Below, piece after piece: positions 1,108-29,278 of a stretch of 64,000 nt of DNA (positions are counted from its first letter, which is position 1; the number at the start of each line of letters is the position of its first letter). The DNA comes from a bacterium. GTDB lineage: Bacteria > Hinthialibacterota > Hinthialibacteria > Hinthialibacterales > Hinthialibacteraceae. The translations under genes were made by a program, and so were the position numbers. The notes under the pieces were generated by a model. The model had not been told where the DNA came from. It worked only from the letters and a program-made list of their open reading frames with translations, and ran no database searches. The stretch spans positions 7,527 through 71,526 of the forward strand of contig JBHGBC010000007.1 of assembly GCA_041946805.1 (NCBI GenBank), read 5' to 3'.

Positions 1108-1135
1108 CCGGTTTGGACCGGTGGCGATGACCAAA

Positions 1136-1161
1136 GGGCGTGCGCAGGCACGCCCTTTTTT
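1136..1161 (+). terminator. Rho-independent terminator (GGGCGTGC-GCAG-GCACGCCC + TTTTTT)
   Basis: Perfect 8-bp GC-rich stem, 4-nt loop and a 6-T run, 29 nt after the stop of the upstream CDS. Confidence 0.75.
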
Positions 1162-1289
1162 CGAGTTCCGGCCAGTCCGATTGAAGTGCAGCCGAACATG
1201 CTCGATAATAAGTGCGTAAGTGCCGGATGGATTCACATGGGACTGCGCGGCGGGATCGTCCGGAGATTTTGGCCAGGAAAGGAGAAGAG

Positions 1290-2342: not shown

Positions 2343-2525
2343 TCTCCCGCGGCCTTCATTTCGGCTGCCTGATGGTTATGTAATCCTATCTGGTGCCTTC
2401 ACTTCCCTGGTGGTTTGGGATCCGAGTATCCAGTATTTTATTGCGAAATTGGCCGCCATGGATTGGCTTTGGTCCCCACCGGGCATGCATTTCCATGATG
2501 CACCCAATTGATCATGAGGTGTTTG

Positions 2526-15644: not shown

Positions 15645-16814
15645 TCAGATTTGATACTGGATATCCCGTTTGGGGGCGGGGGGGCAATCCGTGCCGAGGT
15701 TGTCGATCAGTTTTTGATAGAGGGCTTCATACTGAGTGGTGATGAGATCCACATTGAATTTGCGTTGGACCAGTTCCCGCCCGGCCGCGCCCATTTGGCG
15801 TTGCAGGCCGGGATTGGTCAGGATCTTGACCGCCGCTTCGGCGATGCCCTGAATGCATCCCACCGGATTCAGAAAACCGGTCACGCCGTCTTCCACCACT
15901 TCCACAACGCCTCCCGCGCGGGTGGCCACCACGGGCGTGCCGCACGACATGGCCTCGGCGATGGTCATCCCGAACGATTCGCGCTCGGAGGTGGAGATCA
16001 GCAGGTCGGAATCCTGCAGAATCTCCCCCACGCCGAGGCGGGGGCCCCAGAATTCGACCTTGTCCTGCAGCCCCAGCCGGTCCACCAGCATCTCCGCCTT
16101 GAGCCGTTCCGGCCCTTCGCCCACGAACACCAGCCGCGCGGGAACGGCCGAGACGATCAGGTCGAACACCTTGATCACGTCCTCGATGCGTTTGACGGGG
16201 CGGAAATTGCTGATGTGCACAAGGGTTTTTTTCCGCCGCGCCGGCCGGGGATCATTGGGTGGCGGGGAAAAATACTCGGTGTCAATCGGATTGTAGATGA
16301 CCTGAATATCCTCTTTGATGTCGAATTCCGCCAACGTGGCTTTTTTCAAGTAATGGCTGACCGCCGTGACCGCGTTACACGAGTCGATGCTGAATTCCAC
16401 CACCGGTTTGTAGGAGGGCATCTGGCCCACCAGTTCCGTGTCCGTGCCGTGCAGGGTGGCCACCACTTTCAAGGCGGCCTGGTATTGCTTGCAGAGCATC
16501 TGCTTGGCCAGGAAGGCGGAAGTGCAATGCGGGATGGCGTAATGCACGTGCAGGATGTCGAAGGGAGTTTCCTGGAAGATCTGGTAGATGCTCGAGGCCA
16601 GCGCCAGGGTGTAAGGAGGAAACTTGAACAGGGGATAGAGGGGGACATCGACGTGATGGAAATGAAACTGTTCAGTCGCTCCCTGAAGACGCCGGGGGAC
16701 GTCGTAGCTGATGAAGTGGACCTGGTGGCCCCGGCGCGCCAGCGATTTGCCCAGTTCGGTGGCGACGATTCCGCTGCCGCCCACGGAGGGATAGCATACT
16801 ATGCCGATTCGCAT
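15645..16814 (-). CDS. bshA: N-acetyl-alpha-D-glucosaminyl L-malate synthase BshA-like GT4 glycosyltransferase
   Basis: N-terminus MRIGIVCYPSVGGSGIVATELGKSLARRGHQVHFI is near-diagnostic for BshA. Also has the GT4 EX7E region (STSERESFGMTIAEAMSCGTPVVATRAGG). Confidence 0.65.
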   Translation of the reverse strand: MRIGIVCYPSVGGSGIVATELGKSLARRGHQVHFISYDVPRRLQGATEQFHFHHVDVPLYPLFKFPPYTLALASSIYQIFQETPFDILHVHYAIPHCTSAFLAKQMLCKQYQAALKVVATLHGTDTELVGQMPSYKPVVEFSIDSCNAVTAVSHYLKKATLAEFDIKEDIQVIYNPIDTEYFSPPPNDPRPARRKKTLVHISNFRPVKRIEDVIKVFDLIVSAVPARLVFVGEGPERLKAEMLVDRLGLQDKVEFWGPRLGVGEILQDSDLLISTSERESFGMTIAEAMSCGTPVVATRAGGVVEVVEDGVTGFLNPVGCIQGIAEAAVKILTNPGLQRQMGAAGRELVQRKFNVDLITTQYEALYQKLIDNLGTDCPPAPKRDIQYQI

Positions 16815-17044: not shown

Positions 17045-19000
17045 TTATTCATGGGACATGGATTGAATGGATAATCGGGCCAGTTCGACGCATCGCGCGA
17101 AATGGTCCACGATGGTTTTCAATTCCGTGACAATGGATTCGTATTTCGGGATCATGACCTCCAGAAAGGCGTTGCCCGTGTTGTCCCGGGGATATTCGGC
17201 CCGCTGCCGGCGGTAGTAAAGGTGCTGGACCGAATTTCCCAAAAACGCGTCGAACAGCTCGTCGCCGCACATTTCCACCCACAGCGCCTCGAATTCCCGC
17301 CACCGGCTTTGCGCTTCCGCCCCGCTCACGGCCTGGTTCCGGACAAGGTGTTTCCACTGGTTGAGCATTGCCTGCAGCCGGTCACATATCCCCCTGGATA
17401 CCAGGAGGCGTTCATAACCTTGGCTCAGCCTGCCGGTCAGTTCGGTGACCTGAGCGGCGCGGCGCATCCCGCGGAACGTATCCAACCGTTCGGGGACACC
17501 GGGCGTTACGAGATATTTTCGCATCGCATCCCGCAGCGGCAAGCGGACCGTGCCTTCAAAGCGCGCGCCGCCCTCGGTCGCGTCGACGACCTCCACCCCG
17601 CATTCCGCCACGGTTTTTTCCAGGGCCTTGATGTAGAGCGAGAAGGGAACCGTGGTCGGCACTTCGTCTCCGTAATAGCCGGGGACGAGCATCATCTTGC
17701 CGGATTCGGCCGCGGCCTTGCCTTCTTTTCCGCCGATGACCACCGTCCCGTCCTCACGCATGGGTTCGATTTGGCGGGACAAGGCGGCCGAGGCGGCGTG
17801 GGTGGCGCCGCCGCTCCGGGGGAAGGCGAAGTCAAAACCCGCGAGCAGAATGGGCGCGCACCCCATGTGCAGGGCCAGGTTCAAGGCGAGATGGCCGACG
17901 TTCATGGCCCGTTTCATCACGCCGTATTCCGATTCGAGATCGAAGAGAAACCGCAGCAGGGGCGAATTCGAGTCAAACAAGGGCAGGAGATAGGGATGGC
18001 TGGAGTATTTCTGGGTGATCTGCCGGTAAACCTCGGGATGGAACGCCAGAAACGCGTGACCCAGGGAATCGATCTGTTCAAAATGGCTGAAATTCAGGGG
18101 CGTCGGATCGCCGGTGACCACCACATCCGGCGCGACGCCGATGGTTTTCATCGTGTTTTGGGCTGTATCGACGACAAACAGGGCCGCCCGGCCGTTCACC
18201 TCCCGCAGTTGGCGGACGTTCTTGTCCAGGGATGGCCCGGCGGCCGCCACGATGCCGGGAAAACCCCGCAGCAGGCCCGCGCAATCCTTCAAGGCGTACC
18301 CCCGCGCCAGGGATGGCAGGTTCATGAAGATATTGAACTGTCCCCGTCCCTGGTTTTCGATGTTGGTGCGCATGTTGACTTCATCGTAGGTCAGCATGTC
18401 GAGCAGCGCCTGCTGGGCCGCGGCGTAATAATCGGGGTCATAACGCAGGGAGGCGGGATGAGAGAGGATTTGACAGTTGTGGATCACCAGGTCGCGGCGG
18501 GCGTCTTCCAATATCCGGGACGGGAGGGAAGCCGGGACCGCGTCCACCAGAAACTGGGTTCCGGGCCGTTGGAACAGGCTCCGAAGGTCAAGGACCGACA
18601 GCGCCAGCCGGAGAACGCGCGGATCGCGTTCGATCACGACCAAAAAACGGATCCTCGTGACGTGAGCCTTCAACAGGGTCAACAAATGATATCCCAGTCC
18701 GGCGCCCAGGACCAGCACATTGGTGGGCCGTTCGAGGACGACGCTTTCCGCCCACCGCTGGGCTTCGCGCAAGGGATCGTAGGCGCTATGCAGCAAAACC
18801 GGCTTGTCACGTCCCGGCGGGAGGACGCGGAGCGTGGGAGCGCCGCTTTTGGCGTGCGTCAGTTCGGCCGGGAATCCATCCAGGGACGTGGTTTGGATGA
18901 GCCGCGCCAGTTCCGGGTGGGTTTGTTGGACCGCGGCGAGGTTGGCCTCCAGGATCGATGCTGACAAAACGCGCCTCCGGGGGATGGATGATGACGGCAT
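17045..19000 (-). CDS. maf: motility accessory factor (Maf, DUF115/MptE-like) putative flagellin glycosyltransferase
   Basis: Central DUF115-like blocks: IVAAAGPSLDKNV, GVAPDVVVTGDP, and LAGFDFAFPRSGGATHA. Lies directly downstream of motB in the flagellar operon. Start set at MPSSS (19000) to avoid a 95-nt overlap with motB; the start is uncertain. Confidence 0.55.
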   Translation of the reverse strand: MPSSSIPRRRVLSASILEANLAAVQQTHPELARLIQTTSLDGFPAELTHAKSGAPTLRVLPPGRDKPVLLHSAYDPLREAQRWAESVVLERPTNVLVLGAGLGYHLLTLLKAHVTRIRFLVVIERDPRVLRLALSVLDLRSLFQRPGTQFLVDAVPASLPSRILEDARRDLVIHNCQILSHPASLRYDPDYYAAAQQALLDMLTYDEVNMRTNIENQGRGQFNIFMNLPSLARGYALKDCAGLLRGFPGIVAAAGPSLDKNVRQLREVNGRAALFVVDTAQNTMKTIGVAPDVVVTGDPTPLNFSHFEQIDSLGHAFLAFHPEVYRQITQKYSSHPYLLPLFDSNSPLLRFLFDLESEYGVMKRAMNVGHLALNLALHMGCAPILLAGFDFAFPRSGGATHAASAALSRQIEPMREDGTVVIGGKEGKAAAESGKMMLVPGYYGDEVPTTVPFSLYIKALEKTVAECGVEVVDATEGGARFEGTVRLPLRDAMRKYLVTPGVPERLDTFRGMRRAAQVTELTGRLSQGYERLLVSRGICDRLQAMLNQWKHLVRNQAVSGAEAQSRWREFEALWVEMCGDELFDAFLGNSVQHLYYRRQRAEYPRDNTGNAFLEVMIPKYESIVTELKTIVDHFARCVELARLSIQSMSHE

Positions 19001-19043
19001 TGTACCGCCGGCCGGGCCGGGGGATAAGCGTCCACCGGCGGGA

Positions 19044-19910
19044 TCACCGGGACCTTCCGGATGGCCTGTTGCTCCGGTTTCCATTGGTGTTGCGGGGCAC
19101 GAAGTCTTTTTCATCCGGCGCGATCTTGGGATCACCATTTCCCGCCAGGATGCCCGTGAAGGTTTCGGACTGGCCGCCTTGCAAGAGCAAGATCTCCACC
19201 CGGCGGTTCAAGGCCCGGTGTTCCTCGGAATCGTTGGGAAAACGGGGCCGGTTGTCTCCACAGGACATGACGCTGAACCGGTCCTCCGGCACGCGGTTTT
19301 GGGGAGGCTCCAGCTGGACGCTCAGGTAGGTCATGGTTTCGAAAGCGCGCGCCTGCGCCAGCCGCCAACGGTCCTGGAAGGGGGAGTTGCCGGGCAGGGG
19401 CGTGTCATCGGCATGGCCTTCCACCCGTATGCGCAGATGGGGGAAATCGTTGAGGATACCGGCGAGGGTGTTCAAATACTGCTTGCCCTCCGGTGTGAGT
19501 AAAGCCACGCCCGGGTAGAACAGGATCCGGCCGGCCAGGGTGAAGCGGATGCCTTCTTTCACCCCTTCCACACGGACATCCTGGCTGTCTTGATCGGTCA
19601 CCAGCCGGGACCGGGCTTGTTCGACAATGGCTTCCTTGGCCTTTTCGATGGCCGGGTCCCGCTGGACCGGTTCGGCCCGCTGGGGATGGTTGGACGGAGC
19701 CCGGATATACGAGATCGTGAACAGGCCGGGAATGCGGCCCAGCGCGCCCTGGATGGAGCCGATGGCCTGATTGAATTTTTCCTGCTGCATGCTGCAAATC
19801 GAGAAGAGCAGGACAAAAAAGCAAAGCAGCAGCGACATCATGTCGGAGAAGGTGCACATCCATTCCGGCGCGCCGGCCGGTGGATCTTCTTCCTTGCGTC
19901 TGCGAGCCAT
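19044..19910 (-). CDS. motB: flagellar motor stator protein MotB (paralog 1), OmpA-like C-terminus
   Basis: N-terminus PEWMCTFSDMMSLLLCFFVLLF carries the TM segment with the conserved Asp. C-terminal OmpA-like block RIRVEGHADDTPL...NRRVEILL. Confidence 0.85.
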   Translation of the reverse strand: MARRRKEEDPPAGAPEWMCTFSDMMSLLLCFFVLLFSICSMQQEKFNQAIGSIQGALGRIPGLFTISYIRAPSNHPQRAEPVQRDPAIEKAKEAIVEQARSRLVTDQDSQDVRVEGVKEGIRFTLAGRILFYPGVALLTPEGKQYLNTLAGILNDFPHLRIRVEGHADDTPLPGNSPFQDRWRLAQARAFETMTYLSVQLEPPQNRVPEDRFSVMSCGDNRPRFPNDSEEHRALNRRVEILLLQGGQSETFTGILAGNGDPKIAPDEKDFVPRNTNGNRSNRPSGRSR

Positions 19911-19924
19911 GAGTCGAAACCTCC

Positions 19925-20740
19925 TTAGGGGCGCGGGGAATCCGGCGGCATCAAGGGGGTCCGCGGATCCTTCACGAGCGGTTCGCGGAAGTAGGTCCCA
20001 TCGCCTTCATCGGTTTGCAGCAGGGTGATTTCCACCCGGCGGTTTTGTTTGCGGCCGATGGCGGTGGCGTTGTCCGCCCCGGGCACGGGCTGGTATTCAC
20101 CGAACGATTCGTAGACGAACCGGTCTTCACTCACCTGACCGGCGGGGGATCCCATTTCGGAGAGGAATTTCATGACCGTATACGCCCGGTTGGCTCCCAG
20201 CAGCCAGTTCACCCGCCGGTCGCCGCTGGCGTTGGTGTTGTCGGTGTGACCGCCGACCTTGACCGGATTGGTGGGGAATTGGATCAATTCGCCGGCCACG
20301 AATTGCAGGGCCGCGATCCCCTCGGCCTGCAGATGGTATTGCCCCGGCTCGAAAAGCACATCGCCGGAAAGGCGGAACGTGATGCCCAACTCGGTTCCCG
20401 TGACCTGGAGGACATTCTGCAGGTTGAGCGCCTGGATTCGCCGTTGCTCTTCGCGGAGCAGCTCTTCCTTGGCGTAGGATGTCCGTTTTCTGGTCTGGGC
20501 CGGGCGCGAGATCAAGGGATCCGTCTGCCGGAGGGGAAGGGGAGGGACCACGTAGGGGGCGGGGAGTCCGCCGAAAGCCGCCTTCAGGGAACCGGCCGCT
20601 TGGGTCATTTTCTTTTCTTCCATGGTGGACAGGGCAAAGAGCAGAACGAAAAAACACAACAGCAGCGACATCATGTCGGAGAAGGTGCACATCCATTCCG
20701 GCGCGCCGGACGGAGTATCATCGGTTTTTTTTCTGCGCAT
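19925..20740 (-). CDS. motB: flagellar motor stator protein MotB (paralog 2)
   Basis: Start MRRKKTDDTPSGAPEW aligns with paralog 1. Has an identical 24-aa N-terminal TM segment and a divergent OmpA-like C-terminus (VKVGGHTDNTNASGDRRVNW...NRRVEITL). Confidence 0.8.
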   Translation of the reverse strand: MRRKKTDDTPSGAPEWMCTFSDMMSLLLCFFVLLFALSTMEEKKMTQAAGSLKAAFGGLPAPYVVPPLPLRQTDPLISRPAQTRKRTSYAKEELLREEQRRIQALNLQNVLQVTGTELGITFRLSGDVLFEPGQYHLQAEGIAALQFVAGELIQFPTNPVKVGGHTDNTNASGDRRVNWLLGANRAYTVMKFLSEMGSPAGQVSEDRFVYESFGEYQPVPGADNATAIGRKQNRRVEITLLQTDEGDGTYFREPLVKDPRTPLMPPDSPRP

Positions 20741-20789
20741 CGGGTCGTTGCCGGCCTGGTCCCGGGTCCGGGAAGCCGGATCCTCCTTG

Positions 20790-21554
20790 TCAGTCCTCCC
20801 GCGGGGGGCGCATGGTGGGCGCAAGAAACGCGAGCAGTTTTTGTTCCAGAATGCGGGGATTGTCCCCGGATTGGATCGACATCACGCCTTCGATCGCCAC
20901 TTCCTTGACCAGGATTTCTTCCTGGGACCGGGCTTTCAATTTGCCGGCCAGGGGAATGAAGAGCAAGTTGGCCATGAGCGCGCCGTACAGGGTGGTCAAC
21001 AGGGCCACGGCCATGGCGGGGCCGATGGCGGAGGGATCGTCGAGGTTTTTCAGCATGGCCACCAGGCCCACCAGGGTGCCGATCATCCCCAGGGCGGGGG
21101 CGACCGTTCCCATGTAGAGCAGGATGGATTGTCCGTTACGGTGCCGGTCTTCGATAAAGGCCAGTTCGGTTTGGAGGATATCCTTGATGAGCTCCGGTTC
21201 CACGCCGTCGACGGCCAGCCGCAGGCCGGAGCGGACGAACTCGTCTTCGATTTCATCCATGGAGGCTTCCAGCGACAGGATGCCTTCCCGCCGCGCGCGT
21301 TCCGCGAAGCTGACCAAGGTGCTGACGGTGTCCAGGGGAGAGGCGGTTTGGGAGAAAAACGCGTTTTTGATGACGCTGGTCAGACTGAGAACGGAGGGCA
21401 GCGGGAAGTTGATCAAGGCGCAGGCAAAAGTTCCTCCCACCACGATCATCACGGAGGGATAGTCGATATAGGTGTTGAGGCTGCCGCCGGTCAAGATCGC
21501 CGCGATGACCAGTCCGAAGGCGAGTACGAGGCCGACCACAGTCGAAAGATCCAC
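20790..21554 (-). CDS. motA: flagellar motor stator protein MotA
   Basis: 4-TM MotA/TolQ/ExbB family. Motifs: MDLSTVVGLVLAFGLVIAAIL, and LGMIGTLVGLVAMLKNL...AMAVALLTTLYGALMANLLFIP. Confidence 0.9.
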   Translation of the reverse strand: MDLSTVVGLVLAFGLVIAAILTGGSLNTYIDYPSVMIVVGGTFACALINFPLPSVLSLTSVIKNAFFSQTASPLDTVSTLVSFAERARREGILSLEASMDEIEDEFVRSGLRLAVDGVEPELIKDILQTELAFIEDRHRNGQSILLYMGTVAPALGMIGTLVGLVAMLKNLDDPSAIGPAMAVALLTTLYGALMANLLFIPLAGKLKARSQEEILVKEVAIEGVMSIQSGDNPRILEQKLLAFLAPTMRPPRED

Positions 21555-21583
21555 AGGTAAACCTCCTGATTACCGGGGAGTGA

Positions 21584-21778
21584 TTAGGGCCGCGGAGGCA
21601 TCCCGATTTCCCGTTTGTAGTCGATGCATTTTTCCCGCACCCGGTCGACCGGTTCCCGGACGAGGTATTTCCGGCCCGTGACCAGGGTGATGACGGTGTC
21701 CGGAGTCGCTTCGACGGTTTCGATCAGTTCGGCGTTCATCATGAAGGGCGTTCCGTTGAGTTTGGTCAGCTGGATCAA
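21584..21778 (-). CDS. flbD: flagellar protein FlbD
   Basis: TTG start preceded by GGAGAT. LIQLTKLNGTPFMMNAELIETVEATPDTVITLVTGRKYLVREPVDRVREKCIDYKRE matches the FlbD consensus (MIKLTRLNG...PDTVITL.NGKKY.V.E). Sits immediately upstream of motA. Confidence 0.85.
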   Translation of the reverse strand: MIQLTKLNGTPFMMNAELIETVEATPDTVITLVTGRKYLVREPVDRVREKCIDYKREIGMPPRP

Positions 21779-22355
21779 GCCGGATCTCCTATAGAGAACT
21801 CCGGGCATGGCTTGCTGGATCAAGCTGTCCGGAATCGGTTCCTGAAATTTCTTCGTCAGCTCCTGACGGATACGCTGAATCCGATTTGCATCCCAAGGGC
21901 CCATGGTCATGGTATCTAAACGGAAACAGGGGAAAAACCGGCTTTTCCCCATGGATAAATCCTTCCCGGCCGCAGTGGGCCGAACCGCCTTCATTATCAG
22001 CGTGCCGCCGGGCAAACTTGAGTGGTAGCCCGGTAAACGCCCGCGAGGACAGCGGGGGCTTTGCCCAAAGATATTTGAGTATCCGGAATGATTCGGCATC
22101 CATTTTAAAATCGAGTCCACCCAGACCCAAGGGATGCCGGACCCTCGCCGCGTTATTGCGTGAAGGGATGGGGGCGAACCCCCGGCCGCCTCCTGCCCCC
22201 TCCTGATTCGGATCAAAGCCCCATCGTGCTTTGATCTGAGGATGTATGAGGCGAGCCGGGGCCTGTGGCGTCCTGCTCCTGTTGTCATATGCTGGAGCCC
22301 CATGTGATCGCATTGTCATCCCCGGCCGCAAGCATGCGCCGCAACAGGAAAAGTC

Positions 22356-22383
22356 AGGCCGGAAATTCCAAGAAATTTCCGGC
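22356..22383 (-). terminator. 11-bp perfect stem-loop (GGCCGGAAATT-N6-AATTTCCGGCC) after flgE, candidate attenuator/terminator
   Basis: 42 nt downstream of the flgE stop on the minus strand, followed by TGACTTTTCC. Lies within a 650-bp gene-free gap. Confidence 0.35.
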
Positions 22384-22424
22384 CCCCTCAACACGCAAGA
22401 TCAATAGGGATCTCGAAAGAGTAT

Positions 22425-25409
22425 TTACCGTTTCAGGGAGACCACCTCGGTCAGAATCTGGTCGCCGGTGGTGATCACCCGGGCGTTGGCCTGATAAGCC
22501 CGCTGGGCGATGATCAGGTTGGTGAATTCCTGCGCCAGATCCACGTTCGACAGCTCCAATGCGCCGGAGTTGATCTCGCCGCCTTCCACGCCCGCTTCCA
22601 CGTAAACGCGTTCGCCGGAGTTGGGGCCGGTGGTGAACACGGTGGCCCCGTCCTGGATCAAGCCGCCCTCGTTGGTCACCTTGGCCAGAAGGATCTTGCC
22701 AAGAGACTGTGTGTCGCCATTGGTGAAGATACCCATAATATCACCGTTTTGCGTGACGGTGACACTGTCCAGGCTGCCCGCCGCGCGTCCGTCCTGGCTT
22801 TGAAACTGGGCGGTGTTGGAACCGCTGAAGTAGGTGATCCCATCGAGAGCCATCTGGACGGAAATGGGGGCGACGCCGCTGTTGTTCGGATCCGTGCTGT
22901 CCGGATCGAAGGTGATCACCGGCGCGCCATCTCCGTCGCCGTAGGATTGGAAGCGGCCTTCGCTGTCGAAGATCAAGGTACCGGTGGTCTGGCCGGCTTG
23001 GCCGCGGGGATCGTTGGGAACCACCGCCTGGTAATTGACCGTGTTGCGGATCATACCCGGCTGATGGATGGTGTTGGTGGTGAACGACTGGCCGGAGCCG
23101 TCCCGCGCCACGATTCCCACCGGGACCTGGGGCGCCTGGTCCGCGCCCGGCCGGCCGTCGAAGTTCGTGGGGATGCCGTAGCCTTCTTGATTGAATAACG
23201 CCCGGAACGCGGTGACCTCGGGTTGGAACGCGGCGTACCCGTCGAATTTCTCCGTGGTCAGACTGGTGTTGGTGGGATACACGCCCGTGCTCAAGGCCAC
23301 CAGGTGAACGCCGGAATCGTTGATGCCCGAGGGCAAGGTCGTGGCGGAACTGCCGGAGGCGGAACTGCCGTCGTGGTTGGCCACGCCGAAAGCCTTGGAG
23401 AGGTCGGGATCGAAGGGATCGGCGGATTTGATGAAGCCCGTCGCCTTGCCGCTGTCGGCGGGATTGGCCAGGGGTTCCAGGGGATTGAGGGTGCTGACCC
23501 GGACGGAGCGGGTTTTCGCGGCCAAGTCCAGGACCAGGCCCAATTTATCCTCGCCTCCGGCGGCGGAGATCAGGTTTTGTGTGAGGGTGGCGTCATCCGA
23601 CACGGACATGCCCAGGCTGCCTCCCTTCGCGCTGAAGGCCAGGCTTCCCTCCGGCGTCAACGTGATCTGAATGGTGGGAATTTCGGCCGGGGCGGAAAGC
23701 GTGGTGATGCCGTTCAGGTTCAGGCCGGTGGCGGCGGGATCGATTTTCGTGAGATTCATGGCCACCTGTTGTATGGCGGCGTTGATCCGGTTCTCGATCT
23801 GGGTGCGCATCTCATCCAGGGTGGTGGTGGGACTGAATCCCGTGTCACCCAGCAATCCGCCGCCGGAATTGTTGTTGCTGGTCAGATTCAGCATAGAATC
23901 GCCGGTCACATCCAGCCCGGCGGCGGTGAAGTTCGCGTCGATTCCGCCATCGGCCTGGATGGGAACGTTGAAGGTTCCCCCGTTGAAGGAGAGGGCGCCG
24001 TCGGAAAGCCGCAGGGCGATCAGGTTCCCGCCGCCGTCCTTGAAGGTATAGATTCCCTGGGTGGCGACAATGTTGCTGATTTGGCGGGCGGTGAATACGG
24101 CGGTGTTGTTGGCCGTGTCGAGCACCGGTTCATTGTATTCCGGTTCCGCGGGGATGACGCCGCCCGGGATAAGCGGACGTCCCTGGCTGTCCTGGAACTG
24201 GCTGACACGGGTGGCCCCATCCGCGGGCGGGGTTTGGGTGTCCTTCGCCAGGCCGACCGTGATGGTGTGCGTTTTCCCCTGGGAATCGTAGATGTCGATG
24301 GACGTGGTGGTGTCGGCCCGGCGGATTTTGTTGGTCTGTACGACGGAATCCGGATTGACATTGAGTGTCTTGGTGAAATCGGGGTCGTCCTGGTTCATGA
24401 AGAGATTGCCGATCCGCTGGTTGGCGTCCGCGGGCGGCGTGTCCGAATTGTTCCGGGGGGTCACACCGAGCCGGATGCCTTGGTACGCGTTGTCTCCGCT
24501 GTTGGCCAGTTCGAATTGGCCGGCGCTGGTGAAACTGACCTCCAGTCCGCTGGTCCGAGACGGATCGATGCTCGAGGCCGCCTGGTTGAAGAAATGGTTC
24601 AGGGCGGCCTGCAAATCGGCCACGGTGGTGGTGGAGGTGACGGTCAGGATCACTCCTTTCCCCTTGCCCGTGTCGACACCGGTCAGATCGACCGGATTTT
24701 GGATACTCTCCGGTGGATTTCCGAGGTTCATGTATCCGGTCTCGAAGCGGATGACATCGCCATTCATCAGGCCGAAGGATTTCCCCGTGGCATCGAACAG
24801 TCCCAGCAGGTTCGTCGAGTTTTGAGCCATCTGGACCGCATCGCCGCTGTTGGGATCGCCGATCCGGGCGTTGAAGTTGCCAGCCGCCCGGACGGTATCC
24901 GTCTGTTTGGGCAACGACTGCCGGTTGAAATCGATCTGCAGTTCCGACGGGGCTTCCGTGCTTTGCAACACGCCGTTCGCATCCGCCATCCGCCCGGTCA
25001 ACCGGTAACCGGAGCCGGGATCGACGATGTAGCCTTCGTTGTCGAGGGTGAAGTTACCCGCCCGGGTGAGAAATTCCTGCCCGGCCCCATCCTTGAGGAC
25101 AAAGAAGCCGTCCCCATTGATGGCCAAATCCAGCAAACGGCCGGTGGTCTGGGGGCTGCCCTGGGTGAAAATAGTATCCACGCTGCCCAGATTCACGCCC
25201 GTGCCGATTTGCAGCGGATTGATGCCCCCGATGTTGCCCGTGGCGCCCGATCCGTTGAATAAGGTTTGATAGAAAATATCGTTGAAGGTCGGCCGGCTCG
25301 CGCGGAATCCGACCGTGTTGATGTTGGCGATGTTGTTGCCGATGACGTCGATGTTGTGTCCCATGGCGGTGAGGCCGGTGAGACCCATGAAGATGGATTG
25401 TACTGTCAT
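22425..25409 (-). CDS. flgE: flagellar hook protein FlgE, unusually large (994 aa) with expanded central domain
   Basis: RBS GGAGG. N-terminus MTVQSIFMGLTGLTAMGHNIDVIGNNIANINTVGF and C-terminus GALELSNVDLAQEFTNLIIAQRAYQANARVITTGDQILTEVVSLKR are canonical Flg_bb_rod / FlgE motifs. About 600 aa of Gly/Thr/Asn-rich insert lies between them. Confidence 0.9.
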   Translation of the reverse strand: MTVQSIFMGLTGLTAMGHNIDVIGNNIANINTVGFRASRPTFNDIFYQTLFNGSGATGNIGGINPLQIGTGVNLGSVDTIFTQGSPQTTGRLLDLAINGDGFFVLKDGAGQEFLTRAGNFTLDNEGYIVDPGSGYRLTGRMADANGVLQSTEAPSELQIDFNRQSLPKQTDTVRAAGNFNARIGDPNSGDAVQMAQNSTNLLGLFDATGKSFGLMNGDVIRFETGYMNLGNPPESIQNPVDLTGVDTGKGKGVILTVTSTTTVADLQAALNHFFNQAASSIDPSRTSGLEVSFTSAGQFELANSGDNAYQGIRLGVTPRNNSDTPPADANQRIGNLFMNQDDPDFTKTLNVNPDSVVQTNKIRRADTTTSIDIYDSQGKTHTITVGLAKDTQTPPADGATRVSQFQDSQGRPLIPGGVIPAEPEYNEPVLDTANNTAVFTARQISNIVATQGIYTFKDGGGNLIALRLSDGALSFNGGTFNVPIQADGGIDANFTAAGLDVTGDSMLNLTSNNNSGGGLLGDTGFSPTTTLDEMRTQIENRINAAIQQVAMNLTKIDPAATGLNLNGITTLSAPAEIPTIQITLTPEGSLAFSAKGGSLGMSVSDDATLTQNLISAAGGEDKLGLVLDLAAKTRSVRVSTLNPLEPLANPADSGKATGFIKSADPFDPDLSKAFGVANHDGSSASGSSATTLPSGINDSGVHLVALSTGVYPTNTSLTTEKFDGYAAFQPEVTAFRALFNQEGYGIPTNFDGRPGADQAPQVPVGIVARDGSGQSFTTNTIHQPGMIRNTVNYQAVVPNDPRGQAGQTTGTLIFDSEGRFQSYGDGDGAPVITFDPDSTDPNNSGVAPISVQMALDGITYFSGSNTAQFQSQDGRAAGSLDSVTVTQNGDIMGIFTNGDTQSLGKILLAKVTNEGGLIQDGATVFTTGPNSGERVYVEAGVEGGEINSGALELSNVDLAQEFTNLIIAQRAYQANARVITTGDQILTEVVSLKR

Positions 25410-25604: not shown

Positions 25605-26018
25605 TTACCCTGGCGTGGGCATGACCACGGTACTGTCGATCTGGGTGAAGACGATTTTTTGCAACTGGGACTGGTCCATCGCGGTGACCACCGTGCGGTT
25701 GTCCACGTTCACCACGAAGGCTTTGCGGTCCATCAGGATGAGGGAGAGGTGGCCCCCCTTCTCCTTGGCCAGGTCGATGGCCTGGTCCAGCTGGGTCAGG
25801 GTTTGGTCATCCAGATCGATGCCCCGGGATTCCACGCGTTGCCGGGCGTGGGCGGAGAGGTTGACGTCCACGCCGGGTGGAACCATTTTCTCACGCAGAA
25901 TATCCCCGAATGAACGGCCTTGATTGGCCGCGGGCCGCATGCCCACGATCGGCGGTTGGAGAAAATCGGTGATCGCCGGGGTTGGCAATCCGGCCGGCGG
26001 CAGTTGGATCGAATTCAC
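25605..26018 (-). CDS. flagellar operon protein (TIGR02530-like small protein found between flgD and flgE)
   Basis: 137 aa. ATGA-coupled to flgD. Placed between flgD and flgE as in Clostridia/Thermotogae operons. Family call is from context and rough similarity only. Confidence 0.45.
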   Translation of the reverse strand: MNSIQLPPAGLPTPAITDFLQPPIVGMRPAANQGRSFGDILREKMVPPGVDVNLSAHARQRVESRGIDLDDQTLTQLDQAIDLAKEKGGHLSLILMDRKAFVVNVDNRTVVTAMDQSQLQKIVFTQIDSTVVMPTPG

Positions 26019-26698
26019 GCGGCGTTCCTCCTTTCATAGACGGCTTGCACATCCGATAACGGCGCGGCCTGGCCGTTGATCAGCAAAATGGGAGTTCCAT
26101 CCAGGAAGGTGACTCCATCCACCAGATCCCGGATATAAACCGGTATTTCGCTTTCGTTGCCTCCCGCGTCCACGGTGGAGCCGATGGAAATCTGGTAATT
26201 CCCTGCCGTGAGCGTCTGGCCCTTGGCGTTTTTCCCATCGAAGTCGTATTCAACTTCTCCGGGGGCGGGGGCGTTGATCACATCGTTGTAAACAATGCGG
26301 CCCGAGGCATCCGTCACCTGGACCGGAATTTCGCCCGCCTGGGGCGCCTGAAACACGAAATGGACAGCCTCGTCCGGCTGGAAGGCGAACTGATTGCCCA
26401 CCACGGTCGCTTCCTTGCCGATCAAGGAAAGCGCCTGGGCGGTGGCGTTGTTTTGCTGTCCCGCGACCAGTTGCTCCAGGAGTTTGGTTTGCGTTTGTTG
26501 CTGCTCGAGCGAACTGAAGGTCGCCAGTTCCGCCACGAATTCCTGGTTTTCGATGGGATTGAGCGGATCCTGATGCTGCAATTGGGCAATCAACAGGCGC
26601 AGGAAGTCTTCCTTGTTGACGTTGTCCGTGCTCGTGGAGGTCAGCGTGGTTTCGTTTTGGGACACCGGGCTGTTCATGGCGGAAACGGCGGCGGTCAT
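26015..26698 (-). CDS. flgD: flagellar hook capping/assembly protein FlgD
   Basis: KEDFLRLLIAQLQHQDPLNPIENQEFVAELATFSSLEQ is the canonical FlgD N-terminal motif. C-terminal Ig-like domain. Confidence 0.9.
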   Translation of the reverse strand: MTAAVSAMNSPVSQNETTLTSTSTDNVNKEDFLRLLIAQLQHQDPLNPIENQEFVAELATFSSLEQQQTQTKLLEQLVAGQQNNATAQALSLIGKEATVVGNQFAFQPDEAVHFVFQAPQAGEIPVQVTDASGRIVYNDVINAPAPGEVEYDFDGKNAKGQTLTAGNYQISIGSTVDAGGNESEIPVYIRDLVDGVTFLDGTPILLINGQAAPLSDVQAVYERRNAA

Positions 26699-26724: not shown

Positions 26725-29070
26725 TCATTGGAAATAATCCATCGCGGTAAACCGGTCTTTCCAATACGAATTGTTCCGGCGGGAATGGCGCTCCCCGGAC
26801 GAGCGGCGGCCGGACCGGTCATCCTCTCCGGCGGGATCGTGCCGGCTGGACCGGTTGGATTGGGAATCGTTCTTGGCGGAATCCTGTTGTTTGGCGTCCA
26901 GCGTCTCCTTGGAGATGGTCAACCGTTCCACGCGAATGCCTTGATCGTCGAACGCGGAACGCAGGGCGGTGATATTCTGTTCCAGCAAGGCGCGGGTGGC
27001 GTGTTTTTCGGCGCTGATCTGGGCGGACAACAGGTTGTTTTCCAAGGTCATGCGCACGACGATATGGCCGAGCGATTCGGGAACCAGGCGCAAGCTGACC
27101 TGGCTGCGCTGCGAGCCGAGTGATCCTTGCACGGCGCGCACGATCTGGCGGGAAGCGGTTTCCTGCAATTGGGCGATTTTTTCGGTATAGGCCTGGGCCA
27201 TGCCGGACGCGGAGGGAGTCTGGGCTGCGTGGGTTTCATTCATCACCGGCGGCGCGGCGTCTGGATGCATGGGCTGGTGGCATTGCGCCTGAACGATTTC
27301 CGGATGGACCGGGGTTGCCGGGGTGGTGGCCGGACGGGAAGCCGGCGGCAAGGTTTCCACTACCGTGTCCAGGGTGGCGCCAGAAGACGGTGGCGCAGAT
27401 TCGGTTTGGGATTCCGGAATCCGCTGGAGCTGGGTGTCCGGTTCGCGGTTGGCGGCTTCACGGTGAAGAGAAGCAGATGCGGTTGTCTTTTTCACAACCG
27501 GTATGGCTATCTTTTCCATGGATTCGTTCGAGCATTGGTCCGATGGGCCGTCCTCGGCCATGACATCGATCCCAGGGATGAAATTCTTCCGTTTGTCATC
27601 CAGTTTCACCGAGCCGGGATCATGGGATGGGATTGTCTTACGGGCTTGCGGATTCGCGGCGGACAGGAAAACTGTCTGATCATCTTTCATTCCCCACTTG
27701 GAAGGGATTTCACTGGAGTCCGAAGTGAACAAGAGAGGGGAACGGTCCGGGTACTCCGGGGCTGTGCCCGGGGCGCCGGTTGATGGGAATCCGTTCTGAA
27801 ATCCGGAGGGCATTCCCTGAAACGGAGGAAGAGAATTGGCTGATTGGATGGTCTCCCTTGTTGTGGAAGTGTTGATTTCATCCGTACATTCAATGGGCTC
27901 TTCCAAGGTTATTTGAGTGAAAACAGATTCCGCCGGGAGAGACGGTTTCTCAGTTTTCCGCTGCATGTTCATATCTATTGGGGAGGAATGAACCTTGCCG
28001 GCGGCATGCGGCATGGAACCATGGTGGTCCGCGGATATTCTAGAATGCTCCGTCAGAAACGTGGTTTCAGCGGATAGTTGTGCGCCGGACTGGAAGTGTG
28101 TGACTTTCCTGACCGTCTTCTCTGAACTTATCCCTACGGGAATTGCGGTGTTGTCATTATTGGCGCTTTTGATGCCAACCGACTCCTCTTTGATACTCCG
28201 CTTTGGGGAGTGCTTTGATTCCTGTATTTTATATTTCCCGGTGGGTGCCGGCTGATCAGGGCTGGACTGGATATTCAATGCCATCGGCCTGTCGGGAGTG
28301 GCTAAAAAATGCCGAGAATCGGCAATATTTTCCCACGTTGGGATATCATTTGGGGGGATGGATGGCCCGGATGGAGAAGGGATGGGAATGTCCGTTCCCT
28401 GAGGGTATCCTTGCACGGCAGGTTGGGACGGAAAATCGAAAGAAACACGTGTAGTTTGGCACTCATGCGATGCATTCGAGTCGAGGATGGTTTTTGACAC
28501 ATCGATGGAGTTGTATCCGTTTGACTTGGCATCCCCTCGTTTATCCCGGACCAGGCTGCCAGCGTGAATAATCCGGGGGGAGAGAGCCGGGAGTTCGCCT
28601 GTTTCTTGCGGCGCCGATGCGAAGTCCAGCAGCCGTTCCGTCAAAGGGGAATCCGGTTTCGAGGAAATGCGGTTGCCTTCCAGATTTCCGCCCGCCGGGA
28701 GGGCCAGCGGATCCTGAGTGGAATCCGGCGGGGAAAGTATATTTAAGTGAATCGTGGGATTTTTGTCTTGGCCCTCGGTCCGCGTGGATTCGTGGGACAA
28801 GAAAAGCGCACGGGCAGAGCTTTCCTTTAAGTTCTCTGCCGATATTGCTTTTCGAGACTGGCCAGGCCGGGCCGGGGAGGTTATGGTCACTTCCTGGCGG
28901 GAAGAATGATTGGTTGAAGGACGATGCAGCGCTTCCTGAAACAGGGGGAAGAAGGGGGAAGTGGAGGTTGAGTTCAAAACCGTGGGAGCCTTGGCTCGAA
29001 GCCCGGCCGCCGTATTGGAACGGGAGCGGTCCAAAAAGAAAACAGCGGCGTTTTGTCCCATGTTTACCAT
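26725..29070 (-). CDS. fliK: flagellar hook-length control protein FliK, large Ser/Pro-rich form
   Basis: C-terminal Flg_hook domain: VSLRLVPESLGHIVVRMTLENNLLSAQISAEKHATRALLEQNITALRSAFDDQGIRVERLTI. Long low-complexity N-terminal region. Start is ambiguous (29061-29103). Confidence 0.7.
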   Translation of the reverse strand: MVNMGQNAAVFFLDRSRSNTAAGLRAKAPTVLNSTSTSPFFPLFQEALHRPSTNHSSRQEVTITSPARPGQSRKAISAENLKESSARALFLSHESTRTEGQDKNPTIHLNILSPPDSTQDPLALPAGGNLEGNRISSKPDSPLTERLLDFASAPQETGELPALSPRIIHAGSLVRDKRGDAKSNGYNSIDVSKTILDSNASHECQTTRVSFDFPSQPAVQGYPQGTDIPIPSPSGPSIPPNDIPTWENIADSRHFLATPDRPMALNIQSSPDQPAPTGKYKIQESKHSPKRSIKEESVGIKSANNDNTAIPVGISSEKTVRKVTHFQSGAQLSAETTFLTEHSRISADHHGSMPHAAGKVHSSPIDMNMQRKTEKPSLPAESVFTQITLEEPIECTDEINTSTTRETIQSANSLPPFQGMPSGFQNGFPSTGAPGTAPEYPDRSPLLFTSDSSEIPSKWGMKDDQTVFLSAANPQARKTIPSHDPGSVKLDDKRKNFIPGIDVMAEDGPSDQCSNESMEKIAIPVVKKTTASASLHREAANREPDTQLQRIPESQTESAPPSSGATLDTVVETLPPASRPATTPATPVHPEIVQAQCHQPMHPDAAPPVMNETHAAQTPSASGMAQAYTEKIAQLQETASRQIVRAVQGSLGSQRSQVSLRLVPESLGHIVVRMTLENNLLSAQISAEKHATRALLEQNITALRSAFDDQGIRVERLTISKETLDAKQQDSAKNDSQSNRSSRHDPAGEDDRSGRRSSGERHSRRNNSYWKDRFTAMDYFQ

Positions 29071-29278
29071 CCGTGGCGACTTTCGCGGCGGCTCCGGCCG
29101 CAATGTGGGAACAGATAATGATCAAGGAAAAGCAAAGTCGATGCCAGGTTTGATTTATGGCAAGAAACCAGCGTGAGTATACGGTAATCACTTGATTTTG
29201 TTGAGCTAAAAACCACAATGGCGAAGGAGGGACGGGCAGGGGAAGTCAGGGAAAGGGGCAATTTTTGCCCAGGATGGG

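What the first reader, a model, noticed from the sequence alone, without database searches (positions are those of the whole stretch)
19044..20740. Tandem motB paralogs with one motA; identical 50-nt 5' segment
Two MotB genes lie back to back downstream of a single motA. They share a nucleotide-identical stretch (AGCAGCGACATCATGTCGGAGAAGGTGCACATCCATTCCGGCGCGCCGG) encoding the TM/plug segment PEWMCTFSDMMSLLLCFFVLLF. Their periplasmic OmpA-like domains are strongly diverged. This suggests either alternative stator B-subunits (as in the MotA/MotB1/MotB2 arrangement of some thermophiles) with different peptidoglycan-anchoring properties, or ongoing gene conversion at the 5' end.
Basis: seen in the sequence. 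Interest (0 to 1): 0.55.

Follow-up and report, generated by a model that had tools for sequence, protein, structure and literature searches.

The report
One motA, two conserved motB genes
This flagellar operon encodes one MotA channel protein and two intact MotB anchor proteins whose membrane segments are kept identical, partly by DNA copying between the two genes; the arrangement is already known from Aquifex and is found here throughout a little-studied candidate phylum.

Summary
Two complete motB genes (19925-20740 and 19044-19910, minus strand) follow a single motA (20790-21554) in a fliK-flgD-flgE-flbD-motA-motB-motB-maf operon. They share an exact 50-nt run (19827-19876 = 20660-20709) that encodes GAPEWMCTFSDMMSLL, the half of the transmembrane helix carrying the channel Asp.

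Both genes are functional-looking. Each has MotB_plug and OmpA domains and a canonical predicted fold, and orthologue dN/dS is 0.06-0.21. The pair occurs in all 22 relatives fetched, a clade that includes SURF_12 and homologues named Ca. Hinthialibacter (phylum Hinthialibacterota/OLB16). About 140 other loci outside this clade carry one motB, with one exception (L104).

The periplasmic parts form two mirror-image orthologue clades, so the duplication is old. The transmembrane block evolves in concert within genomes. Synonymous sites are homogenised, 11 of 15 rare residue changes hit both copies, and the 50-nt run exceeds every one of 418 cross-genome comparisons (maximum 29 nt). This indicates recurrent short-tract gene conversion together with selection for fit to the shared MotA.

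The arrangement matches the published Aquifex motA/motB1/motB2 operon, so this is a new member of a known kind. Whether the two MotB proteins form alternative stators or mixed dimers is unresolved. Interest is moderate.

The parts
20790..21554 (-). motA (254 aa), the only stator A-subunit gene found in the window
   Evidence: Pfam MotA_ExbB, E 2e-31. The best solved relatives are Clostridium MotA 6ysf/8ucs and Vibrio PomA 8bri, E about 1e-63 to 1e-66. tblastn finds no second motA in the window.
19925..20740 (-). motB_up (271 aa), the first B-subunit paralogue. It has a TM helix with Asp, a plug helix, a disordered linker, an OmpA-like domain and a conserved C-terminal tail.
   Evidence: Pfam MotB_plug 4.7e-19 and OmpA 2.2e-11. 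It equals P0060, which NCBI annotates as MotB. AF2 model me14058b97ce8 matches MotS/PomB/HpMotB C-domains with TMt 0.84-0.87. Orthologue dN/dS is 0.06-0.18. The orthologue clade has 90% bootstrap.
19044..19910 (-). motB_dn (288 aa), the second B-subunit paralogue. It has the same architecture and a periplasmic part closest to PomB.
   Evidence: Pfam MotB_plug 9.4e-19 and OmpA 2.5e-12. It equals P0001. The best solved relative is Vibrio PomB 8bri, E 6.5e-29. AF2 model m7eb61db63e85 reaches TMt 0.85-0.89. dN/dS is 0.09-0.21. The orthologue clade has 91% bootstrap. A strong SD sequence AAGGAGG lies 7 nt upstream of the ATG.
20660..20709 (-). The 50-nt identical tract, copy in motB_up (the inferred donor). 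It encodes (S)GAPEWMCTFSDMMSLL.
   Evidence: In this tract W_up differs at 3-4 sites from its orthologues L161_up and L001_up.
19827..19876 (-). The 50-nt identical tract, copy in motB_dn (the inferred recipient of a recent gene conversion).
   Evidence: W_dn has 0 differences from W_up here but 6 and 7 differences from its own orthologues L161_dn and L001_dn. Downstream of codon 16 it carries dn-type synonymous states again.
19803..19876 (-). The 24-codon protein-identical block GAPEWMCTFSDMMSLLLCFFVLLF in motB_dn. The equivalent block in motB_up lies at about 20636-20709.
   Evidence: The block is almost invariant in 44 sequences from 22 genomes. Paralogue dS in the block is 0.42, against saturation in the rest of the gene.
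21584..21790 (-). flbD. The FlbD domain occupies only the last ~60 codons of the 239-aa longest ORF (21584-22303); the true start is uncertain.
   Evidence: Pfam FlbD 7.6e-26 at residues 177-233. Relatives-131 aa.
22425..25409 (-). flgE (994 aa), upstream in the same flagellar gene string
   Evidence: Pfam Flg_bb_rod, FlgE D1/D2 and Flg_bbr_C. The same synteny is seen in relatives.
17045..19000 (-). maf-like gene (MptE-like / Maf N-terminal domain) directly downstream of motB_dn. Its start codon is uncertain.
   Evidence: Pfam MptE-like 2e-29 and Maf_flag10_N 1.8e-6. It is conserved downstream of the motB pair in all of L162-L167. There is no minus-strand terminator-like site between motA and maf.

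Best explanation
This is a conserved stator module with one A-subunit and two B-subunits. A tandem duplication of motB happened before the radiation of the clade, which includes Ca. Hinthialibacterota/OLB16 members. Both copies have been kept as working genes ever since, co-transcribed with a single motA.

Both MotB proteins must insert their transmembrane helix, with the ion-binding Asp, into the same MotA ring (inferred). That helix is therefore held almost invariant. When it does change, it changes in both copies of a genome.

Two processes keep the helices matched:
- Recurrent short-tract gene conversion between the 5' ends of the tandem genes. The most recent event is in this genome's lineage, ran from motB_up to motB_dn, and left a tract of about 50 nt.
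- Parallel selection for the same residue in both copies.

Conversion tracts do not spread into the periplasmic part. That part (plug-proximal region, linker, OmpA-like peptidoglycan-binding domain and a conserved C-terminal tail) has diverged into two orthologue families, each under purifying selection.

The functional consequence is inferred, not shown. The same MotA channel can be tethered through two different periplasmic anchoring and activation modules. This could happen either as two kinds of homodimeric stator or as mixed MotB_up/MotB_dn dimers.
For: Anatomy and integrity:
- ORFs, Pfam domains and the SD sequence are described.
- Both AF2 models show a TM helix, a plug helix, a disordered linker and an OmpA-like domain. 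They match MotS/PomB/MotB C-domains with TMt 0.84-0.89.
- The GH(T/A)D ... NW/RW-x-L ... RA ... NRRVEI motifs are present in both copies.
- Orthologue dN/dS is 0.06-0.21 for both copies.

Conservation:
- motA-motB-motB is present in all 12 species-representative genomes of the clade. It is also present in 10 further assemblies, except that L164 has no motA at the locus and the short contigs L007 and L161 show only part of it or none.
- About 140 loci from other phyla have a single motB.

Age of the duplication:
- The periplasmic-part tree gives an up clade (90% bootstrap) and a dn clade (91%) with mirrored topologies.

Concerted evolution of the TM block:
- Synonymous codon mismatch between up and dn is 0.47 within genomes and 0.62 across genomes (permutation p = 5e-5). 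In the rest of the gene it is 0.59 against 0.64.
- After GC3 matching and subtracting the rest-of-gene effect, the mean excess is 0.11, positive in 15 of 20 genomes (Wilcoxon p = 4e-4).
- The longest identical run is 48 nt counted from the GAP codon in W (50 nt in full), against a maximum of 29 in 418 cross-genome pairs. L003, L009, L012, L004 and L163 also fall in the top 0.5-2%.
- Of 15 genome-by-position non-consensus residue events in the block, 11 hit both copies of the same genome. L166 adds two more.
- The serine codon-family switch to AGC appears in both copies of L004 and of L010.

Direction and extent in W. The chance probability from codon usage is about 1.5e-4.

Precedent: Aquifex motA/motB1/motB2, with TM 97% and periplasm 23% identical (PMC4525482).
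Against: - No experiment or expression data exist for this uncultured lineage.
- Only 64 kb of the genome is visible, so a second motA elsewhere cannot be excluded.
- In one relative (L164/L168) motA is absent within 10 kb either side of the motB pair.
- The signal of conversion is episodic. L001, L005, L007, L008 and L081 show no synonymous excess.
- For W alone the whole-block excess is modest: 5 of 20 codon mismatches against an expected 0.46-0.47. The case rests on the clustered run and the orthologue comparison.
- Some concerted residue changes use different codons or even different residues in the two copies (L165 Leu CTC against TTG; L006 Q/L and G/A). Conversion therefore cannot be the only process.
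- Monophyly of up and dn together has only 23% bootstrap. Acquisition of one periplasmic module from outside, rather than simple duplication, is not excluded.
- The genomes are phylogenetically related, so the p-values overstate independence.
Confidence: 0.8

Rival explanations
1. No gene conversion has occurred. The identical nucleotides are the by-product of extreme purifying selection on the transmembrane residues combined with strong codon bias in a high-GC genome (GC3 about 0.79).
For: - The 24-residue block is nearly invariant in all 44 sequences, and similar blocks occur in other phyla.
- Most of the 16 codons in the tract are preferred codons.
- Same-residue codons outside the block already match in 52% of cases in this genome.
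- Several relatives show no synonymous excess.
Against: - Codon-usage probability of the 16-codon match is 1.5e-4, or 3e-5 by homozygosity.
- Among GC3-matched high-GC genomes the longest cross-genome up/dn run is 26 nt, against 48 nt within W.
- W_dn is closer to W_up (0 differences) than to its own orthologues (6 and 7 differences).
- The within-genome synonymous excess survives GC3 matching and a rest-of-gene control (p = 4e-4).
- The shared AGC serine-family switch in both copies of L004 and of L010 is hard to obtain by selection on protein.
Confidence: 0.07
2. The two MotB proteins form an obligate or preferred heterodimer inside a single MotA5 ring (MotA5-MotB_up-MotB_dn). The locus would then encode one asymmetric stator, not two alternative stators.
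For: - The TM helices are identical, so either chain fits either position in the ring.
- The genes are tightly coupled in all genomes, with gaps from -11 to +47 nt and several start/stop overlaps, which suits equimolar synthesis.
- Neither copy was lost in any of the 22 genomes.
- The two families have mirrored trees, meaning they co-diverge.
- Residue changes in the TM are mirrored in both copies even where the codons differ.
Against: - There is no direct evidence, and multimer modelling was not available here.
- All solved MotB/PomB/MotS periplasmic domains are homodimers, as far as I know.
- In Aquifex, MotA plus MotB1-chimera and MotA plus MotB2-chimera each worked alone in E. coli (PMC4525482). 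A heterodimer is therefore not required for channel function there.
- Every observation listed in favour is equally expected if two homodimeric stators share one MotA.
Confidence: 0.25
3. One copy is redundant or decaying, or the duplication is an assembly artefact.
For: - W_dn has GHADD instead of GHTD and RW instead of NW in the OmpA-like motif.
- The sequence comes from a metagenome-assembled genome.
Against: - Both ORFs are full length, with Pfam hits above the curated cut-offs.
- dN/dS is 0.06-0.21 in both families.
- The folds are confidently predicted, with pLDDT 80-93 in the OmpA-like domain.
- The pair is present in 22 independent assemblies from NCBI, JGI, ENA and Logan.
- The two copies are only 40% identical in protein, so they cannot be a collapsed or duplicated repeat.
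Confidence: 0.02
4. The identical stretch is conserved because it acts at the RNA or DNA level, for example as a regulatory RNA target, a structure or a binding site, rather than because of recombination.
For: The tract begins with a perfect 12-nt palindrome, CCGGCGCGCCGG, in both copies.
Against: - Across the clade the same codons vary freely at synonymous sites, so there is no nucleotide-level conservation between species.
- There is no Rfam match at E <= 1 in 18500-22500.
- The palindrome is not conserved in relatives.
Confidence: 0.02

Closest known systems
Aquifex aeolicus motA/motB1/motB2 operon (Takekawa et al. 2015, PMC4525482; also PMC4987623)
   Same: One motA is followed by two motB genes in one operon. 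The N-terminal/TM regions of the two MotB proteins are almost identical (97% in Aquifex; 24 of 24 residues in the block here). The periplasmic regions are strongly diverged (23% in Aquifex; about 35% here, 40% over the whole protein). The roles of the two B-subunits are not established in either case.
   Different: The phylum differs: a mesophilic, high-GC uncultured Hinthialibacterota-type lineage against hyperthermophilic Aquificota. Common origin of the two duplications was not tested because no Aquifex sequence was available. Here the arrangement is shown to be conserved across a whole clade, and the TM identity is shown to be maintained by concerted evolution (gene conversion plus parallel selection). 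The Aquifex papers I read do not report that. Na+ coupling was shown for Aquifex chimeras and is unknown here.
Dual-stator systems with two complete A/B sets (Pseudomonas MotAB+MotCD, Shewanella PomAB+MotAB, Bacillus MotAB+MotPS)
   Same: More than one kind of stator B-subunit is available to one flagellar motor, with different periplasmic domains.
   Different: Those systems have a dedicated A-subunit for each B-subunit, usually at separate loci, and the TM segments differ, often with different ion specificity. Here there is one motA, and the TM segments are identical.
Vibrio PomB and Clostridium/Bacillus MotB/MotS (solved stator B-subunits)
   Same: The domain order and fold are the same. 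motB_dn is closest in sequence to PomB (8bri, E 6.5e-29). motB_up is closest to Clostridium sporogenes MotB (6ysf, E 2.3e-24). Both models superpose on MotS/PomB C-domains.
   Different: Sequence identity is only 24-30% in the periplasmic domain. Both paralogues carry family-specific conserved C-terminal tails that are not covered by the solved domains.
Concerted evolution of tandem bacterial paralogues by short-tract gene conversion (general phenomenon; tuf genes and rRNA operons are the textbook cases, from my own knowledge)
   Same: Within-genome homogenisation of a bounded tract while the flanking sequence keeps an orthologue-like phylogeny.
   Different: The tract here is very short (tens of nucleotides). 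It is confined to one functional module of otherwise strongly diverged genes. It is accompanied by parallel amino-acid replacement that conversion alone does not explain.

Membership tests
MotB/PomB flagellar stator B-subunit | N-terminal single transmembrane helix carrying the invariant channel Asp, followed by a plug segment (Pfam MotB_plug) | tested here: met
   MotB_plug E 9.4e-19 (dn) and 4.7e-19 (up), both above the cut-off. FSDMM with Asp is present in both copies and in 44 of 44 clade sequences. AF2 predicts helices at 16-40 and 43-58 in dn and 16-55 in up.
MotB/PomB flagellar stator B-subunit | C-terminal OmpA-like peptidoglycan-binding domain with the MotB-C fold | tested here: met
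   Pfam OmpA E 2.5e-12 and 2.2e-11. Foldseek top hits are MotS, PomB and H. pylori MotB C-domains, with TMt 0.84-0.89 and E about 1e-13.
MotB/PomB flagellar stator B-subunit | Conserved peptidoglycan-contact residues of OmpA-like domains (Asp of G-x-T-D, N-x-x-L-S-x-x-R-A, N-R-R-V). The motif is taken from my general knowledge. | tested here: inconclusive
   The up copy has GHTDNT ... NWLLGANRA ... NRRVEI. The dn copy has GHADDT ... RWRLAQARA ... NRRVEI in W, and GHTD ... NWRLA.ARA in the family consensus. The Asp and Arg residues are kept, the Ser of L-S is replaced in both families, and binding itself was not tested.
MotB/PomB flagellar stator B-subunit | Encoded next to motA within a flagellar gene cluster | tested here: met
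   The order fliK-flgD-flgE-flbD-motA-motB-motB-maf is seen in the window and in relatives.
MotB/PomB flagellar stator B-subunit | Forms an ion-conducting, torque-generating complex with MotA | not testable with these tools
   This needs genetics or biochemistry.
One-A/two-B stator operon (Aquifex motA/motB1/motB2 type) | A single motA followed by two motB genes in one transcription unit | tested here: met
   The gap between the motB genes is 14 nt, and there is no terminator-like site on the minus strand between motA and maf. Only one motA is seen in the 64-kb window. The rest of the genome is not visible.
One-A/two-B stator operon (Aquifex motA/motB1/motB2 type) | Near-identical N-terminal/TM regions with strongly diverged periplasmic regions | tested here: met
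   The block is 24 of 24 residues identical, against 40% overall and about 35% in the periplasm. Aquifex shows 97% and 23%.
One-A/two-B stator operon (Aquifex motA/motB1/motB2 type) | Descent from the same duplication as the Aquifex pair | not tested
An independent origin is plausible, since L104 shows a separate, younger duplication.
Dual-stator system (two complete MotAB-type sets) | A dedicated A-subunit gene for each B-subunit gene | tested here: not met
   One motA per locus in the window and in the 19 clade loci that hold a full-length motA.
Gene conversion between paralogues | Paralogues within a genome are more alike than orthologues in a bounded tract, including at synonymous sites, while the flanks keep the orthologue phylogeny | tested here: met
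   See the best explanation for details.

The most novel reading that the evidence does not exclude
The two MotB paralogues assemble as a heterodimer inside one MotA pentamer. This would give an intrinsically asymmetric stator whose two periplasmic arms bind different targets, for example peptidoglycan and a periplasmic motor scaffold. On this reading, the concerted evolution of the TM helices reflects a requirement that both chains be equivalent for the rotating MotA ring. The same rule would hold wherever two motB genes share one motA: this clade, Aquifex and the L104 lineage.
Probability: 0.25. Interest if true: 0.75.

Novelty: new member of a known kind. Interest (0 to 1): 0.42.

Why it matters
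The role of the second MotB in one-A/two-B stator operons has not been resolved since the arrangement was described in Aquifex. This result shows three things.

- The arrangement is fixed across the whole clade sampled here, which includes Hinthialibacterota/OLB16 members, with both copies under purifying selection. It is not a curiosity of a single genome.
- The channel-forming helix of the two B-subunits evolves in concert. This provides an evolutionary read-out of how tightly the MotB helix must fit the MotA ring.
- It yields a natural set of matched pairs (same helix, two periplasmic modules). These could be used to dissect stator anchoring and activation, or to test for heterodimeric stators.

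It is also a clear example of gene conversion whose tract is limited by selection to a single functional module. The result does not change the current picture of how stators work.

Tried and rejected
- Assembly artefact or pseudogene. Rejected; see the rival explanations.
- Known RNA element in the identical tract. No Rfam hit at E <= 1 and no nucleotide conservation between species.
- Codon bias as the sole cause. Tested with codon-usage probabilities, GC3-matched cross-genome controls and a rest-of-gene control, and rejected as the sole cause.
- Co-variation of MotA TM3/TM4 with the lineage-specific MotB changes. I aligned 19 MotA sequences. Many lineage-specific differences are present, but there was no clear pairing with the MotB changes by eye, and I did not pursue it.
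- Placing the Aquifex MotB1 and MotB2 in the tree.
- First NJ and bootstrap run. It timed out. A second run was distorted by an undefined distance correction. I report only the corrected run.
- Literature search for gene conversion between motB paralogues. It found nothing relevant in the held library.
- Metagenome scan. It added only two further clade loci (L081, L100); most hits were distant single-motB loci.
Full report
**1. What is in the sequence**

On the minus strand the window carries a flagellar gene string:
- fliK (26725-29103)
- flgD (26015-26698)
- flgE (22425-25409, 994 aa)
- flbD (domain at the end of ORF 21584-22303)
- motA (20790-21554)
- motB_up (19925-20740, 271 aa)
- motB_dn (19044-19910, 288 aa)
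- a maf-like gene (17045 to about 19000)
- a GT4 glycosyltransferase (15645-16814)

The two motB genes are 14 nt apart, and AAGGAGG lies in front of the second. No terminator-like site lies on the minus strand between motA and maf.

The exact run is 50 nt: 19827-19876 = 20660-20709. It lies inside a 181-nt direct repeat of 72% identity.

The run encodes GAPEWMCTFSDMMSLL. The next eight residues, LCFFVLLF, are identical in protein but differ at 6 nucleotide positions in 5 codons, all synonymous. Overall the proteins are 40% identical.

**2. Both genes look functional**

- Each protein hits Pfam MotB_plug and OmpA above the curated cut-offs.
- AlphaFold2 models built on orthologue alignments show the same architecture in both. 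Each has a TM helix, a plug helix, a low-confidence linker and an OmpA-like domain with pLDDT 80-93.
- Foldseek places both on the periplasmic domains of B. subtilis MotS, Vibrio PomB and H. pylori MotB, with TM-score 0.84-0.89 normalised to the target.
- By sequence, motB_dn is closest to Vibrio PomB (E 6.5e-29). motB_up is closest to Clostridium sporogenes MotB (E 2.3e-24).
- The Asp of G-H-x-D, the R-A of the helix motif and N-R-R-V-E-I are present in both.
- Between orthologues, dN/dS of the periplasmic part is 0.06-0.21 for both copies.

**3. The pair is old and conserved in a clade**

A protein search returned many contigs with two hits each. One hit was 55-85% identical to motB_dn and the other 36-40% identical. 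Some of these have adjacent locus tags.

Scanning one genome per GTDB species gave 12 loci, L001-L012, with motA-motB-motB in the same order (L007 is cut within motA). Loci L013-L080 from other phyla had motA plus one motB. These phyla include Hydrogenedentota, Planctomycetota and Desulfobacterota.

Ten more assemblies show the same pair, most with the flgE-flbD-motA ... maf synteny. These are L081, L100 and L161-L167.

One of the loci is MAG SURF_12, which the literature places in phylum OLB16, now Ca. Hinthialibacterota (PMC9324843). Some homologues are named Ca. Hinthialibacter.

A neighbour-joining tree of the periplasmic parts gives an up clade with 90% bootstrap and a dn clade with 91%. 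Their internal topologies mirror each other. The joint monophyly of the two clades is weakly supported (23%). The duplication, or the acquisition of the second module, therefore predates the radiation of this clade.

The artefact criterion is also not met. Twenty-two independent assemblies agree.

**4. The transmembrane block evolves in concert within genomes**

The 24-residue block is almost invariant in all 44 sequences. When it varies, it varies in both copies of the same genome:
- L003 has Ser to Ala, with GCC in both copies.
- L165 has Cys to Ala, Met to Leu and Cys to Thr in both copies.
- L166 has Cys to Thr and Met to Leu in both copies.
- L010 has Glu to Leu in both copies.
- L011, L100 and L162 have Val to Ile in both copies.

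Of 15 genome-by-position non-consensus events, 11 hit both copies.

At synonymous sites, the codon mismatch between up and dn is 0.47 within genomes and 0.62 across genomes (permutation p = 5e-5). In the rest of the gene the corresponding figures are 0.59 and 0.64, which measures the effect of shared codon bias. After matching genomes for GC3 and subtracting the rest-of-gene effect, the mean excess is 0.11. It is positive in 15 of 20 genomes (Wilcoxon p = 4e-4).

The serine codon family is switched to AGC in both copies of L004 and of L010. Paralogue dS in the block is 0.3-0.6 in W, L003, L006 and L012, but saturated elsewhere.

The signal is episodic. L001, L005, L007, L008 and L081 show none.

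**5. The event in this genome**

Counted from the GAP codon, the identical run is 48 nt in W, and 50 nt in full. The maximum among 418 cross-genome up/dn pairs is 29 nt, and among GC3-matched high-GC genomes it is 26 nt. Even orthologue pairs reach only 14-26 nt. From the window's codon usage, the chance of the 16-codon match is about 1.5e-4.

Within the 16 codons the differences are as follows:

| Comparison | Differences |
|---|---|
| W_dn vs W_up | 0 |
| W_dn vs its orthologue L161_dn | 6 |
| W_dn vs its orthologue L001_dn | 7 |
| W_up vs its orthologue L161_up | 3 |
| W_up vs its orthologue L001_up | 4 |

From codon 17 onward, W_dn carries dn-type synonymous states again.

The simplest reading is a conversion from motB_up into motB_dn in this lineage. 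It would have happened after the split from L161, at orthologue dS of about 0.5, and its tract is about 50 nt.

**6. How it most likely works**

Shown:
- one motA and two intact, conserved, co-oriented and tightly spaced motB genes;
- a shared helix;
- two diverged periplasmic families.

Inferred:
- Both MotB proteins pair with the same MotA ring. The helix must therefore stay compatible with it.
- Short-tract recombination between the tandem 5' ends repeatedly resets the two copies to the same sequence.
- Selection removes tracts that extend into the diverged periplasmic part.

Some mirrored replacements use different codons (L165 Leu CTC against TTG) or different residues (L006 Q/L and G/A). 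Parallel selection must therefore act alongside conversion.

What the two periplasmic modules do differently is not known. Both have family-specific conserved tails after the OmpA-like domain, which may be partner-binding motifs.

Two assembly modes remain open: alternative homodimeric stators or mixed dimers. The tight coupling (gaps from -11 to +47 nt) and the absence of any loss of either copy would fit both.

**7. Comparison with what is known**

The closest known case is the Aquifex aeolicus operon motA/motB1/motB2. There the two MotB proteins are 97% identical in the N-terminal/TM region and 23% identical in the periplasm. Each works with MotA as a chimera in E. coli, with Na+ dependence (PMC4525482; PMC4987623).

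The present locus meets both structural criteria of that arrangement. Common descent with the Aquifex pair could not be tested.

It is not a dual-stator system of the MotAB/MotCD or PomAB/MotAB kind, because there is only one motA at the locus.

An unrelated contig, L104, carries a separate and younger tandem motB pair. Its periplasmic parts are 60% identical, the pair has 100% bootstrap, and it groups with Planctomycetota-type MotB. Thirty N-terminal/TM residues are identical between its two copies. The arrangement has therefore arisen more than once.

I found no report of gene conversion between motB paralogues in the held library.

**8. Verdict**

It is a new member of a known kind, the one-A/two-B stator operon, in a candidate phylum where it is universal among the genomes sampled. 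The added finding is that the channel helix is kept identical by concerted evolution.

Interest is moderate at 0.42. A motor specialist would find it useful rather than surprising. The heterodimer reading would be more notable, but nothing here shows it.

Noticed in passing
L164 1-5828 and L168 1-20828 (GCA_040755155.1, JBFMBP010000102.1): This relative keeps flbD-motB_up-motB_dn-maf, but neither motA nor flgE lies within 10 kb either side. Only 208 nt separate flbD from motB_up. The shared motA must be elsewhere in the genome or missing from the MAG.
   Followed up: partly
L104 about 950-3200 (Ga0255039_10000008): This is an independent, younger tandem motB pair after one motA, in a lineage whose MotB groups with Planctomycetota/Phycisphaerae-type proteins. 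The two copies share 30 identical N-terminal/TM residues (APEWMVTFGDMMSLLLCFFVIIVSLSEIKE) and 60% identity in the periplasmic part.
   Followed up: partly
window 22425-25409 (-): The hook protein FlgE is 994 aa, and 1009-1027 aa in relatives. That is more than twice the usual length as I recall it. A long stretch between the D1 and D2 Pfam matches has no domain hit.
   Followed up: no
window 41643-51101 (-): A very long ORF of 3152 aa. It was not examined.
   Followed up: no
window 19044-19180 and 19925-20010 (-); alignment of 44 sequences: Both MotB families carry conserved C-terminal tails beyond the OmpA-like domain. The up family has QTDEGxGTxF...KNPRTPL and the dn family has LLQG..SETI.G.LEG...PDExDFVP. 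The models predict them disordered (pLDDT below 50), so they may be partner-binding motifs.
   Followed up: partly
window 19865-19876 and 20698-20709: The gene-5' edge of the identical tract is a perfect 12-nt palindrome, CCGGCGCGCCGG, in both copies. It is not conserved in relatives.
   Followed up: partly
window 19044-19138: The longest maf-like ORF (17045-19138) would overlap the 3' end of motB_dn by 95 nt. Relatives start maf 14-80 nt after motB_dn, so the true start is probably an internal ATG.
   Followed up: no
window 22356-22385 (-): A terminator-like hairpin (13 pairs followed by a T-rich tail) lies just after flgE and before flbD. The flbD-motA-motB-motB-maf genes may therefore form a separate transcription unit.
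   Followed up: no
window 20790-21554 (-) and the TM block of both motB genes: MotA is about equally close to Vibrio PomA and Clostridium MotA (E about 1e-63 to 1e-66). The MotB helix closely resembles that of PomB (WMGTFADLMSLLMCFFVLLL). The coupling ion (Na+ or H+) is open.
   Followed up: partly
window 21584-22303 (-): The longest flbD ORF is 239 aa, but the FlbD domain fills only residues 177-233. Relatives annotate 64-131 aa, so the N-terminal part is probably not coding.
   Followed up: no
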